The position numbers were made by a program. Shown piece after piece: positions 1 through 64,000 of a stretch of 64,000 nt of DNA (the stretch's first letter is position 1; every line of letters starts with the position of its first letter). The DNA is from Octopus vulgaris. Its lineage: Eukaryota. The stretch spans positions 84,134,001-84,198,000 of the forward strand of contig OX597819.1 of the NCBI GenBank assembly GCA_951406725.2. Direction: 5' to 3'.

Positions 1-3000
1 TAGTCAAACAAATCGACCCCAGTACTTATTTTTTTAAGCCTAGTACTTATTCTATCAGACTCTTTTGTTGAACTGTTAGGTTACAGGGATGTAAACATAC
101 CAACACTGGTTGTCAAGTGATGATGGCGGAGAACAAAGACACATATATGTAAATATATACATATATATATGACAGGATTTTTTCAGTTTCTGTCTACCAA
201 ATTCACTCATAAGGCTTTGGTCAATCGTACATTATAGTAGAAAACACTTTCCCAAGGTGCCACACTGTGGGACTGAACCTGGCACCATATGGTTTGTTCT
301 TGCTTTTGTTTCCCATAAATCTGACCTCCTGTACCTTCTCATATACAACATATATAGGTGCAGGCTTGGGCATGTGGTAAGAAGTTTGCTTTCCAACCAC
401 CTAGTTCCAGGTTCAGTCCCACTGTGTGGCACCTTGAGCAAGTGTCTTTTACTCTAGCTGCAGTTCAACCAAGGCCTTGGATATGGTAGCTGGACACTGA
501 AAGAAGCACATCATGTGTGTGTGTGAGTTTGTGTTTGCGCCCCCACCCCACAAAAAACTGTTTGGCAACTGGTGTTGGTGTGTTTACATCTCAGTAACTT
601 AGTGATTTGGCAAAAGAGACCAATAGAAGTACCAGGCTTAAAAAATAAGTACTGGGATTGATTCATTTGACAAAGATTTCAAGTCACTACTCTAGCATGG
701 CCACAGCCTAATGACTGAAACAAGTAAAAGATAAAAGAGGAACAAACATGCAAGATTCCCTTTTCCAATGAAGGTTACTGGAATGGAACAGATTGTTAAA
801 TACAGATTACAAAAATGTATTTTTTCCTACCTGTATTACCCTTTATATGGTATAATTCTAGAGCAGATAGTGAAAAAGAGTACTCATTCTGTTTATAATT
901 ATGATTGCCATCAGAGAACCCAATAGATACTTCTGTATGTTCGAGTGTTTTTGTCCAGGATTGCATACCAGGGAGATAACTGAAGATGAAAAACGTCCTT
1001 TTTTCTGTTTGTGTAGGTACAAGGGCCATCTGGAAGGTAGCCATCTGGAGAAATGAAAACAAAAGATTAACTCTTTAGCATTTAGCTTTCTCTATCAAGT
1101 ATAATGCTCATTTATTCATATTGTTTTTTTATTAATCATACATTATCTCATAGCTTTGAGATCTCAACAATTTGATTGCTTGATTTTACAACAATGTTGT
1201 ATGGTAGGTGCAAAAAGCTGAACATGGCCAATTTGAATGCAGAACAGGTAGATTAATTGGGCTGGATATGGCTGGTTTTAAATGCTAAAGGGTCAAAGTA
1301 CTTAAGGATATGTTTTCTTTGATTTAATGTGATTAAACATACCATTAAATATAATCACTTCAAAAGTTATAATGAACTCAAATGAAACTATAAATTGTCT
1401 ATCTTAGTATAATGATCTTCCTTATAACCAACTGGAGGCTCTCTGTGGTTGCTTGATCTGCCAGAAATAGCAACCAAGTCTCTTTTGAAACAAACCTTAT
1501 TTTAAGAAAGGAAAGACAGATTGGATGATATCCAAGATATACCATAAATCCTCGAGTATAATTCACATATTTTCCCCCAAATTTAAAGGTCTAAATCCCT
1601 AGTGCGTACTATATACGAGGTTAAAAATGAAAATTATTTTCTAAGCAATGTCCGAGTCTCTATTTGCTGTCCGGCAATGTTTATTCAGATGCATTTTGTG
1701 ATGTCAGGCACGAAAATAACTTAAGCTAAGCCTGAAAGCAATGAAGTCATAAAAGAATCATCCATAACATGCAGTAAGCAACATTTATTAAATGTTATTA
1801 CTGTTATTTCTTTATTTTCTACAAACAAAATGCACAAAAAAGCTACACGTTTGCATTATGTTATATATACAATAATAATAAAGGACGTTACCATTTACAT
1901 TTTTACAAACCAAGGACGTTATATAGACCTCCTTGACTTAAGTCAGAGAATTGGTGCATATCATACACAAGGTTTAGGTTTTTCAGAGGTACAGCCTCCT
2001 AAAATTTCGCTGCGTATTATACTCAAGAGCGGACTATACTCAAGGATTTATGGTACTAAGTTGGAATAAACGATCTGATGGTCATAGCTTAGAGAGATAT
2101 ATATTCTATCAGGAATGATCTCGGGCTAATGAGAAACAGCAGCAAAGTATAGTCAAGAAAACTAAATGCAGATGTATATTTAGTTGCTTGTAGCCACTGT
2201 TGATCCACTTCTGGGTATAAGCCCCAGCATGCCTTTATCTTTTATCTTTTACTTGTTTCAGCCAATGGACTGTGGCCATGCTGGGGCATCATTTTTATTT
2301 GAACGAATGGGGCATCATCTTTATTTGAACAAATTGACCCTAGTATTTATTTTGTTTAAAAGTCTGGAACTTATTCCATTGGTCTCATTTGATGAACTGC
2401 AAAGTTACAGGGATGTATTTAGACCAACACCAGTTGTCAAGTGGTGGTGGTGGTGGGGACAAACACAAAGATACAAAAACACACATATACACTGCATAGT
2501 CAAGTACATACATACATACATATAAAGATGTCAGGTAATACTGAATAAGTGCTATAGACAGACCATAGTTAAGTTCCAGATTCGGTAATATTGCGAATAA
2601 AGGGTTCAACATTGGTTTTATGTCAGCGTGTGTATATAAGAATTTTTTGCATAATAAGATAAAAATGCTCTAATAAAAATGCTCTAATAAAAATGCTCTA
2701 ACAGCCTTGGTTTTTTATCTTATTACGCAAAAAGTTCTTATATACATATATATACATATACATATATATATACACACACACACACATATATATATATATA
2801 TATATATATATATATATATATATTTGTATGTATGTATATATATATGTATATGTATATGTGTATATATATATATATATATAACAATTAAGGATAACTTCTT
2901 AATAAGGAATCTTAACAAGAAATTATCAGGTAGATAGCGTGAAAAACCTCATAACAGAAAAATTTCGAAAATAATTCTTTCTTATTGAACATATTAATTT

Positions 3001-63000: not shown

Positions 63001-64000
63001 ACATTTATGATATCACTTACAAGTAATAAATCTGTTATTTCCTTACTTTGTGATGGTGTTACTTTTGTTTGGTAACCTACAGATGTAATTTCTGTAATTT
63101 CAAATTCAGTTTTATTTATGAATGTTGGTTGTATTTTAGTGATATTACTTATATCCAATATATCTATCGATAAAGTATACCCCAATTCTTTTCTGATAGC
63201 CTTTTCACTAACTCTTTTGGAGAAAATATAATCAATAAATGGTATACTTGCACTGGAGTCAGTTAAGAGTTTTGTAATGTCAGTGACTGGAAGTGAGAAG
63301 CTTTGTTGGCTGCTATCAGTTGTAACAGTTACCATAATTTCAGTCATAACTAAATATTTTCCCATGACAGTAGCTTGGGAGAGGCTTTTAATATCAATAA
63401 AGTGCTTTGAGCTATCTGATACTAAAAGACTTGAATAAGTGGTTATTGATATTCCTTTATCTTGAATAACAGTTGTATTTATACCATCATCAGAAAAAAG
63501 TTTGAAATGGATGATTTGTGGTATTCTTTTCTGAATGTCAGTAACACCTGTTTTTGTAATTGTTTCAGTCATTTTATATAAAGCAGTTTCATCAGATTTA
63601 TATTCAATAGATTTCATTACAAGAATGGCTTTTTGTGATGTAGTGTACAAGCCATAATCAGCAATAATTAGTGCGCTCTTGATATAATCAGAAGCACCAA
63701 CTAGTGCAACTGTTGTATAATTGTCTTCATATGATTCAGTTAGTTGTTTTTCAGTTATCGTTGACCCAGATAACATTATACCAGAAGTATCTACTCGTAG
63801 AGATTTTACATCACAAGTAGCTTCAATGTGTCTTACATCATAACTAATGAGAGATTTTTGTGTTAAATCAATGATTGTAACTGATGTTGATATCAAATCA
63901 TATTTTGTTCTGTCAGAGACAATTGTTTTGGTTATTGTCTCATCTGTGACAACCATCCTCACTATAGTAGTTTGCCTGGCTACCTTTCCTTCAATAGTAA

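What the first reader, a model, noticed from the sequence alone, without database searches (positions are those of the whole stretch)
831..64000. Giant MUC4-like protein: >=16,500-aa stalk plus NIDO domain reconstructed across four exons
Seen: phases chain exactly (1, 0, 0, 1), giving ...PFVKET-D-KTFSSF...DILY-ISTNGYITF...NVTE-MATFQMAL...KGNT-G, at least 16,525 residues in the window (about 1.8 MDa before glycosylation at ~110 Da per residue). Established: one large S/T exon followed by NIDO is the MUC4 layout, normally continued by AMOP, VWD, EGF and a transmembrane helix. Inference: an invertebrate mega-mucin or matrix protein (skin mucus, sucker cuticle, egg or spermatophore coat) that automated annotation would likely fragment or miss.
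Basis: partly seen in the sequence, partly recalled or inferred. Interest (0 to 1): 0.88.

Follow-up and report, generated by a model that had tools for sequence, protein, structure and literature searches.

The report
Giant octopus MUC4-like mucin exon
This octopus window holds most of one enormous uninterrupted coding exon (about 49,000 bases) that joins onto the NIDO domain of a gene already annotated as mucin-4-like, so the real protein is roughly ten times longer than the database model.

Summary
The minus strand carries one open frame from 63998 to 14979 with no stop in 16,339 codons; the other five frames carry 513-1604 stops. The exon ends at a CAG|GTAAGC donor at 15041. It chains in phase through three small exons (9086-8971, 6055-5768, 1044-831), giving 49,576 coding nt or 16,525 codons. 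Exons C and D hit Pfam NIDO co-linearly. An annotated Octopus bimaculoides model (XP_014785347.1, "mucin-4-like", 1648 aa) and an Argonauta hians "mucin-like protein" (1586 aa) carry the same four junctions. Both continue into VWD, and the Argonauta model into a transmembrane helix and tail. Both start at an internal Met about 600-905 residues into the giant exon, next to a repeat array, and lack a signal peptide, so they are 5'-truncated. No longer model was found. All 17 3-kb blocks keep the coding signature, all 21 tandem-repeat periods inside the frame are multiples of 3, and 78-95% of Asn in the aperiodic parts lie in N-X-S/T sequons. It is a MUC4-type tethered glycoprotein with an exceptionally long stalk: a new, very large member of a known kind. 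AMOP and EGF were not detected by HMM. Only the proximal ~3,600 residues are classic PTS. Expression and array lengths remain untested.

The parts
15041..64000 (-). Giant coding exon, incomplete at its 5' end. The frame is readable from 63998 and the exon ends with the first base of a split Asp codon at 15041.
   Evidence: 0 stops in 16,319 codons against 513-1604 in the other five frames. Donor CAG|GTAAGC. Uniform coding signature in 17 of 17 3-kb blocks.
57999..63998 (-). Distal stalk, residues 1-2000 of the window's frame. T/I/S-rich with only weak 15-residue periodicity; unannotated.
   Evidence: Lag-15 identity 0.11-0.15 against a background of 0.08. 37 of 41 Asn lie in sequons. 0 hits in 1.84 billion representative proteins for residues 1-1200. 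No Pfam domain.
55599..57998 (-). 15-residue array A, consensus DHVTSGDTVTVTSIP. A second patch lies at 50976-51501.
   Evidence: TRF 56263-57018 (period 45, 16.8 copies) and 50976-51501. Lag-15 identity 0.23-0.33. Consensus.
43074..48020 (-). 15-residue array B, consensus ISTPDTEVLTTEILD, about 110 copies. A 15-copy satellite of the same unit lies at 36107-36795.
   Evidence: TRF 43564-47863 (period 45, 95.6 copies) and 36107-36795. Lag 15/30/60 identity 0.52-0.69.
40865..42798 (-). 15-residue array C, consensus VSTIHSEVHSTEGPD, about 40 copies. By eye it is related to array B.
   Evidence: TRF 41092-42798 (period 45, 37.9 copies). Lag-30 identity 0.71. Consensus.
37599..39998 (-). Zone of degenerate 19-residue periodicity.
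   Evidence: Lag 19/38/57 identity 0.19-0.22 against a background of 0.07.
27999..35198 (-). Aperiodic Tyr/Ile/Ser/Thr-rich stretch, residues 9601-12000.
   Evidence: No dominant lag. Tyr up to 11%. 52 of 62 Asn in sequons. No Pfam domain.
21608..27655 (-). 14-residue array D, consensus SDIHTSMYPSNLST, about 144 copies with one N-glycosylation sequon per unit. This is the most mucin-like part.
   Evidence: TRF period 84/126, 83% matches. Lag-14 identity 0.56-0.79. S+T 0.41, P 0.07, and 58 and 63 sequons per 1000 residues.
17875..20225 (-). 14-residue array E, consensus MSPHDKSTYFPHTS, 56 copies. Degenerate 14-mers fill 20226-21607.
   Evidence: TRF period 42, 56 copies. Lag-14/42 identity 0.41-0.75.
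15041..17792 (-). Non-repetitive juxta-NIDO end of the stalk. It is the only part of the giant exon present in the annotated O. bimaculoides model, which starts at the Met at 17792.
   Evidence: tblastn of XP_014785347.1 residues 1-910 gives one HSP, 17792-15036, 89.9% identity, 3 in-frame gaps. Argonauta residues 79-674 align to 16847-15036 at 42.5%.
9087..15040 (-). Intron 1 (5,954 nt), GT..AG.
   Evidence: 59-62 stops per 1000 codons in all three frames.
8971..9086 (-). Exon B (116 nt; completes the Asp codon, then KTFSSF...SYDILY). A linker ahead of NIDO.
   Evidence: Junctions. Present in both annotated proteins. No Pfam hit of its own.
6056..8970 (-). Intron 2 (2,915 nt), GT..AG.
5768..6055 (-). 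Exon C (288 nt, 96 codons): first half of NIDO.
   Evidence: Pfam NIDO E 6.2e-12, profile 5-94 of 186. 100% identical to XP_014785347.1 and 92% to Argonauta.
1045..5767 (-). Intron 3 (4,723 nt), GT..AG.
831..1044 (-). Exon D (214 nt, 71 codons + 1 nt): second part of NIDO, ending in phase 1.
   Evidence: Pfam NIDO E 4.2e-06, profile 101-170 of 186. Junctions. Covered by both annotated proteins.
1..830 (-). Start of intron 4. The next exon (rest of NIDO, then linker, VWD and so on) lies outside the window.
   Evidence: No 6-mer from the next 60 residues of XP_014785347.1 occurs in any frame of window 1-1200.

Best explanation
The window holds the 3' 49 kb of a single giant coding exon plus the next three exons of an octopus MUC4-type gene.

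Shown:
- The frame is intact and under coding constraint along its whole length.
- It splices in phase onto NIDO exons.
- Orthologous annotated proteins continue into VWD and, in Argonauta, a single transmembrane helix and short tail.

Inferred:
- The protein is a type-I, membrane-tethered, acidic (pI ~5) glycoprotein of at least about 17,000 residues. Its signal peptide lies upstream of the window.
- The stalk is built from diversified 15- and 14-residue Ser/Thr-rich repeat arrays separated by aperiodic Ser/Thr/Ile/Tyr-rich stretches. It is heavily N-glycosylated (354 sequons) and, in the proximal ~3,600-residue PTS part, densely O-glycosylated.
- It would project on the order of microns from the apical membrane as a glycocalyx, lubricating or barrier fibre.
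- In the O. bimaculoides model, a GDPH motif at the start of VWD would allow MUC4-like autoproteolysis. The stalk subunit could then be held non-covalently and shed into mucus.
- The stalk sequence evolves fast by repeat amplification and substitution, while selection keeps the frame open and keeps the sequons.
For: - Open frame: 0 of 16,319 codons are stops, against 513-1604 in the other five frames. In 17 of 17 3-kb blocks there are 0 in-frame stops against 8-143 in each other sense frame, and GC3 (0.14-0.34) is below GC1 and GC2, apart from GC1 in the two blocks of the 14-residue array (0.23-0.25 against GC3 0.30-0.34).
- About 31 kb of the exon is outside tandem arrays.
- All 21 of 21 TRF rows inside the frame have periods divisible by 3. 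The 2 rows outside it (periods 160 and 2) do not.
- 361 of 377 internal self-alignments >=200 nt have offsets divisible by 3.
- Sequons: 354 observed against 115 expected. In four aperiodic blocks, 37/41, 36/46, 52/62 and 18/19 Asn lie in N-X-S/T, and 0 of 1000 shuffles reach the observed count in any block. The unannotated distal blocks behave like the annotated proximal one.
- Canonical GT/AG junctions in chaining phases.
- NIDO on exons C and D, co-linear with the profile.
- XP_014785347.1 and the Argonauta protein contain the same junctions and NIDO+VWD. TM helix in Argonauta residues 1457-1489. GDPH at residue 1261 of XP_014785347.1.
- No hydrophobic 19-mer (KD>=2.0) anywhere in the giant exon or in XP_014785347.1, so no signal peptide is in view and both models are 5'-truncated.
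- The stalk aligns to XP_014785347.1 as one HSP with only in-frame gaps at 89.9% identity, while the NIDO exons are 98-100% identical.
- MUC4 facts (one giant central repeat exon, GDPH cleavage, predicted 2.12 um length) come from PMC2360313, passages read.
Against: - There is no transcript or peptide evidence for the roughly 15,400 residues upstream of the annotated Met. No tool here gives RNA data.
- The first 1,200 residues have no relative in 1.84 billion representative proteins, so conservation cannot be shown for the distal stalk.
- AMOP and EGF, part of the MUC4 definition, gave no Pfam hit in either orthologue, even at E<=10. An Atlas search of the linker gave nothing usable. A PDB sequence search of the Argonauta protein gave 0 hits.
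- Pro is only 5% overall. Only about 22% of 100-residue windows meet S+T+P>=40% with P>=5%.
- Argonauta has GDSH, not GDPH, so cleavage is not a conserved feature.
- The TM helix is seen only in Argonauta. XP_014785347.1 ends without one, and the window itself does not reach that part.
- AlphaFold2 predicts ordered beta-solenoids, not disorder, for both arrays tested, although this is a known artefact class.
Confidence: 0.85

Rival explanations
1. Only the last ~900 residues of the open frame belong to the NIDO gene, as annotated. The upstream ~46 kb would be a separate gene, an alternatively skipped region, or untranslated repeat DNA that happens to be open.
For: Both database models start inside the frame, at 17792 and near 16847+. 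No protein in the collections covers the upstream part. Human MUC4 has splice forms lacking the giant exon: MUC4/Y is mentioned in the abstracts of PMC5354666 and PMC4902942, seen in the search listing only.
Against: No stop separates the two parts, and a separate upstream gene would need one. The upstream 3-kb blocks show the same zero-stop, low-GC3 signature as the annotated block and the same Asn-in-sequon bias. Neither model has a signal peptide, which a VWD/TM surface protein needs. Both models start directly beside repeat arrays: array E ends at 17875, and the Argonauta N-terminus is itself a 13-residue repeat. That is where short-read assemblies and gene predictors break.
Confidence: 0.07
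2. The exon is real, but its length in this assembly is wrong because tandem arrays were collapsed or expanded.
For: 17,887 of 48,957 nt lie in arrays of 42- or 45-nt units at 69-93% identity. A block of at least 840 nt is 99-100% identical to another at an offset of 1,596 nt inside array D. That could be a recent duplication or an assembly duplication. Human mucin VNTR exons are reported to vary greatly between haplotypes and to need manual curation (PMC13345508, passages read).
Against: About 31 kb of the frame is outside arrays and cannot be inflated this way. There are no Ns or frame breaks. Most repeat copies are 15-30% diverged, which long reads resolve easily.
Confidence: 0.2
3. The stalk, or its distal three quarters, is not a disordered mucin. 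It would be a folded beta-rich fibre (stacked 14-15-residue coils), making the protein a rigid surface or matrix cable such as a cuticle anchor.
For: AlphaFold2 without an alignment gives regular all-beta models: array A pLDDT 75.5, pTM 0.77; array D pLDDT 89.3, pTM 0.88. The nearest PDB folds are beta-helices such as SufB/SufD, pectate lyases and tailspikes. Array A has alternating V-T-V-T-S-I patterns. The distal stalk is Pro-poor (3-4%) and rich in Ile and Val.
Against: [quoted passage not shown] Here the more perfect and more Ser-rich array scores higher, and the five models of array A range from 43.6 to 75.5. That is the artefact's pattern. 0 of 211 fold matches reach E<=0.001. One sequon per 14-residue unit, with 50% Ser/Thr, would put glycans on most faces of any coil.
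Confidence: 0.1

Closest known systems
Vertebrate MUC4 (sialomucin complex), a transmembrane mucin
   Same: One very large central exon encodes unique sequence plus short Ser/Thr-rich tandem repeats: 16-residue units and an exon up to ~22 kb in man (PMC2360313, passages), longest allele 27,843 bp (PMC13345508, passages). It is followed by NIDO, then VWD with GDPH at its start, a Cys-rich region, a TM helix and a short tail. Here NIDO is seen in the window, and VWD, GDPH and TM in the orthologous models. NCBI already names the O. bimaculoides model 'mucin-4-like'.
   Different: The exon is at least 48,958 nt and is still open at the window edge, roughly twice the longest human MUC4 allele quoted. 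It has several unrelated-looking repeat families (15-, 19- and 14-residue) rather than one. Pro content is low and Ile/Val/Asp/Glu/His/Tyr content high over the distal three quarters. AMOP and EGF were not detected by Pfam. Orthology to vertebrate MUC4 was not tested.
Cnidarian 'mucin4-like' proteins (coral skeletal organic matrix proteins, sea-anemone mucins)
   Same: These are invertebrate proteins annotated as mucin4-like because they carry NIDO, AMOP, VWD and EGF (PMC4890752, passages read; PMC9080433, search listing only). They show that the architecture predates vertebrates.
   Different: The coral proteins carry extra TSP1 domains and are reported as skeletal matrix components (PMC4890752 passages). 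No giant repeat exon is described in the passages I read.
Giant SEA-type tethered mucins (human MUC12, MUC16)
   Same: Comparable scale. [quoted passage not shown] They share the logic of a repeat stalk on a membrane anchor.
   Different: Those use SEA domains next to the membrane (recalled). Here there was no Pfam hit other than NIDO and VWD.
SUSD2 / Drosophila Mesh (NIDO-AMOP-VWD proteins without a mucin domain), named from recall
   Same: The NIDO ... VWD core order.
   Different: They lack a giant Ser/Thr repeat exon and carry Sushi domains (recalled, not tested here).
Drosophila Dumpy (giant apical extracellular-matrix fibre), named from recall
   Same: A protein of more than 20,000 residues, membrane-anchored and repeat-built, that links epithelium to cuticle. 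It is a functional analogue for the 'matrix cable' reading.
   Different: Its domains (EGF/DPY modules, ZP domain) are unrelated. None were found here.

Membership tests
MUC4-type transmembrane mucin | A very large single exon encoding Ser/Thr-rich tandem repeats | tested here: met
   48,958-nt exon with no stop. Arrays of 14- and 15-residue units. S+T is 30% overall and 41% in array D.
MUC4-type transmembrane mucin | NIDO domain directly after the repeat region | tested here: met
   Pfam NIDO on exon C (E 6.2e-12, profile 5-94) and exon D (E 4.2e-06, profile 101-170). The full domain scores E 1.7e-25 and 1.5e-26 in the two orthologous models.
MUC4-type transmembrane mucin | AMOP domain between NIDO and VWD | tested here: inconclusive
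   This part lies outside the window and was tested on the two orthologous models only. There was no Pfam AMOP hit, even at E<=10, and no usable Atlas hit. However, the NIDO-VWD linker is 134 residues with 8 Cys in both. The 8-Cys count matches my recollection of AMOP, which is a lead, not a test.
MUC4-type transmembrane mucin | VWD domain, with a GDPH autocleavage motif | tested here: met
   This part lies outside the window. Pfam VWD scores E 3.3e-07 (XP_014785347.1) and 4.6e-09 (Argonauta). GDPH occurs at residue 1261 of the former and GDSH at 1025 of the latter. Cleavage itself is not testable here.
MUC4-type transmembrane mucin | EGF-like domains before the membrane | tested here: not met
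   No EGF family hit in either model at E<=10. A Cys-rich stretch is visible by eye, which is not a test.
MUC4-type transmembrane mucin | Single C-terminal transmembrane helix and short cytoplasmic tail | tested here: inconclusive
   A hydrophobic segment (KD 3.29) at residues 1457-1489, followed by RRQKERRR, occurs in the Argonauta model only. XP_014785347.1 ends without one, and the window does not reach this part.
MUC4-type transmembrane mucin | N-terminal signal peptide | not testable with these tools
   The frame is still open at 63998. No hydrophobic 19-mer occurs in the 16,319 residues seen. The start lies outside the window.
Mucin in the strict sense (PTS domain, dense O-glycosylation) | Pro/Thr/Ser-rich composition (S+T+P >=40% with P >=5% in 100-residue windows; the threshold is my own working choice) | tested here: inconclusive
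   Met in 22% of windows, essentially residues ~11,965-15,564 (window 17,307-28,106) and parts of array B. Elsewhere the median S+T is 29% with P at 3-6%.
Mucin in the strict sense (PTS domain, dense O-glycosylation) | O-glycans on most Ser/Thr | not testable with these tools
   This needs glycoproteomics. Only N-glycosylation potential could be scored (354 sequons).
SEA-type tethered mucins (MUC1/3/12/13/16/17) | SEA domain next to the membrane | tested here: not met
   No SEA hit in the giant exon or in either orthologous model.

The most novel reading that the evidence does not exclude
This would be one of the largest single protein-coding exons and largest proteins of any animal: more than 49 kb and at least about 17,000 residues, still open at the window edge. 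Its distal ~12,000 residues, which are Pro-poor and Ile/Val/Thr/Asp/His/Tyr-rich and built of 15-residue units, would not be classical disordered mucin. They would be a folded or cross-linkable beta-rich cable. The protein would then act as a micron-scale anchor between octopus epithelium and an overlying cuticle or mucus layer (sucker lining, gut cuticle, skin), analogous to Drosophila Dumpy but built on a MUC4 chassis.
Probability: 0.1. Interest if true: 0.75.

Novelty: new member of a known kind. Interest (0 to 1): 0.45.

Why it matters
The locus is already labelled mucin-4-like, but the public model (1,648 aa) holds about 5% of the stalk. A protein roughly ten times larger changes how octopus mucus, skin, sucker or gut-lining proteomes and transcriptomes should be searched and quantified, because peptides and reads from about 46 kb of coding sequence currently have no gene to map to.

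It also shows that giant MUC4-type stalks are not a vertebrate speciality. The locus offers a natural series of repeat families for studying how mucin exons grow while keeping frame and glycosylation sites. The near-exclusive placement of Asn in sequons is a simple sequence signature that could be used to flag other unannotated giant secreted exons.

Tried and rejected
- Pfam scan of all 16,319 residues in four pieces: no domain. The single 'Herpes_TK_C' row (0 stretches passing on their own, within array D) is a low-complexity artefact.
- Exon B alone: no Pfam hit.
- Search for longer or other models. The first 1,200 residues against 1.84 billion representatives gave 0 hits. The last 900 stalk residues against proteins of 1,576-4,500 aa gave only XP_014785347.1 out of 8,000 scored candidates. 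The same region against proteins of 5,500-17,500 aa gave 0 of 2,406 candidates. Proteins of 4,500-5,500 aa and, for the proximal stalk, those above 17,500 aa were not covered. The Argonauta protein (1,586 aa) was in range but was not returned, so these word-index searches miss real relatives.
- AMOP: Pfam at E<=10 and an Atlas search of the linker gave nothing. A PDB sequence search with the Argonauta protein gave 0 hits.
- Atlas search with the distal 2,000 residues: best score 0.76 to an unnamed cluster, below the useful range.
- AlphaFold2 on two arrays gave beta-solenoids, and the fold search gave 0 matches at E<=0.001 out of 211 listed. I do not take these as evidence of fold, because of the documented AF2 bias (PMC11795689 abstract).
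- My first self-BLAST filter (>=90% identity, >=600 nt) returned 0 rows. It was re-run with looser settings.
- Rfam gathering scan and tRNA scan of the window: 0 and 0.
- Pfam on five intronic ORFs: no transposon domain. There was one sub-threshold Protoglobin row, E 0.046, taken as chance.
- Literature search for exon-size records ('giant exon' and similar) gave nothing on invertebrate mucins. The 'Octopus bimaculoides' + 'mucin' search (22 papers) and the 'mucin-4' + 'cephalopod' search (3 papers) gave no description of this giant exon in the listings and passages I read.
Supplementary tables of PMC11431876, which may name the accession of the skin-mucus 'mucin-4-like' protein, were not seen.

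
Full report
**1. What is in the sequence**

The window has no N. On the minus strand a single frame is open from 63998 down to a stop at 14979-14981, 16,339 codons, and it runs off the window's 5' edge. Counting only to the splice donor (15042-63998, 16,319 codons), the frame has 0 stops. The two other sense frames have 1099 and 1329, and the antisense frames 1604, 513 and 1524. From base composition about 1157 stops are expected, so log10 of the chance of none is about -521.

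The signal is not carried by repeats alone. By my merge of the TRF rows, 17,887 of 48,957 nt lie in arrays and about 31 kb do not. In each of 17 consecutive 3-kb blocks the frame has 0 stops, against 8-143 in each other sense frame. GC3 (0.14-0.34) lies below GC1 and GC2 in 15 of the 17 blocks; in the two blocks of the 14-residue array (21,999-27,998) GC1 (0.23-0.25) falls below GC3 (0.30-0.34). The three introns carry 41-73 stops per 1000 codons in every frame. All 21 TRF rows inside the frame have periods divisible by three (42, 45, 84, 90, 111, 120, 126, 135, 156, 159, 201, 270). The two rows outside it (160 and 2) do not. Of 377 internal self-alignments of at least 200 nt, 361 have offsets divisible by three.

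**2. The exon chain**

| Feature | Sequence | Position | Phase |
|---|---|---|---|
| Giant exon donor | ACAG\|GTAAGC | exon ends 15041 | 1 |
| Exon B acceptor | ...TTTGTTTGCAG\|AC | starts 9086 | – |
| Exon B donor | TAT\|GTAAGT | ends 8971 | 0 |
| Exon C acceptor | ...TATTATAG\|ATT | starts 6055 | – |
| Exon C donor | GAA\|GTAAGG | ends 5768 | 0 |
| Exon D acceptor | ...TTCTCCAG\|ATG | starts 1044 | – |
| Exon D donor | ACAG\|GTAGGA | ends 831 | 1 |

Each exon was handled on its own.

Pfam finds NIDO in the exon C frame (E 6.2e-12, profile positions 5-94 of 186) and in the exon D frame (E 4.2e-06, positions 101-170). It finds nothing in exon B. The two hits are co-linear with the profile, and the end of the domain must lie on a further exon. 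That exon is not in window 1-1200.

**3. Independent support from annotated proteins**

Exon C alone (96 residues) retrieves two proteins among 26 candidates of 169-2000 residues:
- XP_014785347.1, 'PREDICTED: mucin-4-like [Octopus bimaculoides]', 1648 aa, 100% identity.
- An Argonauta hians 'mucin-like protein', 1586 aa, 92% identity.

Both carry NIDO and VWD by Pfam.

Mapped back onto the window, XP_014785347.1 covers 17792-15036, then exons B, C and D, with no unmatched residues between them. The Argonauta protein does the same from 16847. The chain 'giant exon to NIDO' is therefore what two annotation pipelines in two genera also concluded.

The window is not the exact source of the O. bimaculoides model. 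The stalk part is 89.9% identical (84 mismatches and 3 in-frame gaps in one 919-column HSP), whereas exons B-D show essentially one difference. I read it as O. bimaculoides from another assembly or haplotype, or a very close relative. Against Argonauta the stalk end is 42.5% identical and NIDO about 89%. The stalk evolves fast but stays in frame.

**4. The annotated models are truncated**

XP_014785347.1 begins at the Met at 17792, 83 nt below the end of the 56-copy array E (17875-20225). The Argonauta model begins inside a 13-residue repeat. Neither N-terminus is signal-peptide-like. No 19-residue window with mean Kyte-Doolittle hydropathy >=2.0 exists in XP_014785347.1 or anywhere in the 16,319 residues of the giant exon. 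The Argonauta model has exactly one, at residues 1457-1489, followed by RRQKERRR.

A VWD-bearing, membrane-anchored surface protein needs a signal peptide, so the true start is upstream of both models and of this window.

No longer model turned up:
- 0 hits for the first 1,200 residues in 1.84 billion representatives of any length.
- Only XP_014785347.1 among proteins of 1,576-4,500 aa.
- None among proteins of 5,500-17,500 aa.

Gaps remain. Proteins of 4,500-5,500 aa were not covered, and the word-index search is known to miss relatives: it did not return the Argonauta protein. Adding the 531-706 residues that the models carry beyond exon D, the protein has at least about 17,000 residues (inference).

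**5. Anatomy of the stalk**

Overall composition is Ser 15.5%, Thr 14.7%, Ile 9.9%, Pro 5.0%, with only 31 Cys and 28 Trp. D+E is 11.8% against K+R 6.5%, and the pI is 4.99.

Autocorrelation and TRF divide it, from distal to proximal, into:
- a weakly 15-periodic T/I/S-rich stretch (57,999-63,998);
- array A, DHVTSGDTVTVTSIP (55,599-57,998, and again at 50,976-51,501);
- aperiodic sequence (51,999-55,598);
- array B, ISTPDTEVLTTEILD, about 110 copies (43,074-48,020, with a satellite at 36,107-36,795);
- array C, VSTIHSEVHSTEGPD (40,865-42,798);
- a 19-periodic zone (37,599-39,998);
- an aperiodic Tyr-rich stretch (27,999-35,198);
- array D, SDIHTSMYPSNLST, about 144 copies (21,608-27,655);
- array E, MSPHDKSTYFPHTS, 56 copies (17,875-20,225);
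- a unique 900-residue end.

B and C share a D-[IV]-S-T...[ST]-E-V-x-[ST]-T-E skeleton, and D and E an S-T...H-T-S-M-x-P skeleton. Both comparisons are by eye. This fits diversification from fewer ancestral units.

No Pfam domain occurs anywhere in the exon. Only 22% of 100-residue windows reach S+T+P >=40% with P >=5%. These lie essentially at 17,307-28,106 and in parts of array B. The classical PTS domain is therefore the membrane-proximal ~3,600 residues.

**6. A protein-level signature across the whole frame**

The exon has 354 N-X-S/T sequons against 115 expected from composition. In the four aperiodic blocks tested, Asn lies in a sequon as follows:

| Residues | Asn in a sequon |
|---|---|
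| 1-2000 | 37 of 41 |
| 2801-4000 | 36 of 46 |
| 9601-12000 | 52 of 62 |
| 15601-16319 | 18 of 19 |

The shuffle means are 5.5-16.5, and 0 of 1000 shuffles reach the observed count in any block. The unannotated distal blocks behave exactly like the annotated proximal block. I take this as the best evidence available here that the whole frame is translated into the secretory pathway.

**7. How it most likely works**

Shown: the architecture in this window and its orthologues.

Inferred from established MUC4 biology (PMC2360313, passages read: giant central exon, GDPH cleavage into a mucin-type alpha and a membrane beta subunit, predicted 2.12 um length for the largest allele, a 26.5-kb transcript): the octopus protein is a type-I tethered glycoprotein whose stalk projects from the apical surface. 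Scaling the MUC4 figure by residue number gives roughly 4 um for 16,500 residues (my arithmetic, an inference).

GDPH is present at the start of VWD in XP_014785347.1, but Argonauta has GDSH. Shedding by autoproteolysis is therefore plausible in Octopus and not conserved.

A 'mucin-4-like' protein is reported in O. vulgaris skin mucus (PMC11431876, passages read). Whether it is this gene's orthologue is unknown, because the accessions are in supplements I could not see.

**8. Structure predictions: not informative**

AlphaFold2 without an alignment gives regular beta-solenoids for 16 units of array A (pLDDT 75.5, pTM 0.77; the five models range 43.6-75.5) and for 15 units of array D (pLDDT 89.3, pTM 0.88). 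The nearest solved folds are beta-helices, but 0 of 211 listed matches reach E<=0.001.

AF2 is documented to produce confident, unrealistic beta-solenoids for near-perfect repeats (PMC11795689, abstract read). Here the more perfect and more Ser-rich array scores higher. I therefore keep the folded-fibre reading only as a low-probability rival.

**9. Comparison with what is known, and novelty**

The family is known. MUC4-type NIDO/AMOP/VWD/EGF proteins are described in vertebrates and in cnidarians (PMC4890752, passages read), and this very locus is labelled mucin-4-like.

Giant repeat exons are also known. The longest human MUC4 allele is 27,843 bp, and the longest predicted MUC12 is 23,080 aa (PMC13345508, passages read).

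What is new is the scale for a MUC4-type gene (at least 48,958 nt and still open), the mosaic of repeat families, the atypical Pro-poor distal composition, and the roughly tenfold under-annotation.

AMOP and EGF were not detected by HMM in the orthologues. I therefore file it as MUC4-like by architecture, not as a demonstrated orthologue. My searches of the held literature found no description of this exon.

**10. Verdict**

It is a new, unusually large member of a known kind. Interest is moderate (0.45). Transcript and peptide evidence for the distal stalk, and read-level confirmation of array lengths, are the decisive missing pieces.

Noticed in passing
window 15042-63998 (aperiodic blocks 57,999-63,998; 51,999-55,598; 27,999-35,198; 15,042-17,198): Asn is rare (2.5% of residues), and 78-95% of the Asn present sit in N-X-S/T sequons. 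0 of 1000 shuffles reach the observed count in any of four blocks. This could serve as a general flag for unannotated secreted giant exons.
   Followed up: yes
window 15036-17792 versus 831-9086: Against XP_014785347.1 the stalk end is only 89.9% identical, with 3 in-frame gaps, while the NIDO exons are 98-100% identical. The window is therefore not the sequence that model was built from: it is another haplotype or assembly, or a sister species.
   Followed up: partly
window 21608-27655: Inside the 14-residue array, a block of at least 840 nt is 99-100% identical to another at an offset of 1,596 nt (38 units), against about 83% for typical copies. This is either a very recent segmental duplication or an assembly duplication.
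   Followed up: partly
window 11884-12402 (-), intron 1: A 172-codon open frame beginning YRDDALLV... looks like a reverse-transcriptase remnant by a recalled motif only. Pfam gave no RT hit, just a chance-level Protoglobin row at E 0.046.
   Followed up: partly
window 5123-5392 (+), intron 3: An 89-codon frame resembles the C-terminal end of a mariner/Tc1-type transposase by recall. There was no Pfam hit at E<=0.1.
   Followed up: partly
window 150-480, 7863-8057, 11554-11687: An interspersed repeat family at 77-81% identity, with internal inverted arms, lies in introns next to TA/CA-type microsatellites.
   Followed up: partly
window 13539-13799: A (TA)n microsatellite of about 130 units lies in intron 1. 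Many similar simple repeats in the introns translate as YIYIYI frames.
   Followed up: no
window 43054-45780 (+), 21565-23496 (+), 18413-20245 (+): Long antisense open frames of 908, 643 and 610 codons lie inside the repeat arrays. One antisense frame has only 513 stops overall. I read them as by-products of the arrays, not genes.
   Followed up: partly
window 3595-4385: A 160-nt unit repeated 1.9 times (3894-4193) lies in intron 3, with overlapping low-complexity open frames on both strands. Its nature is unknown.
   Followed up: no
window 15042-27998 (array D): Pfam lists Herpes_TK_C at E 4.7e-16 for the whole protein, but with 0 stretches passing on their own. It is a low-complexity artefact of the Ser-rich array.
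   Followed up: yes
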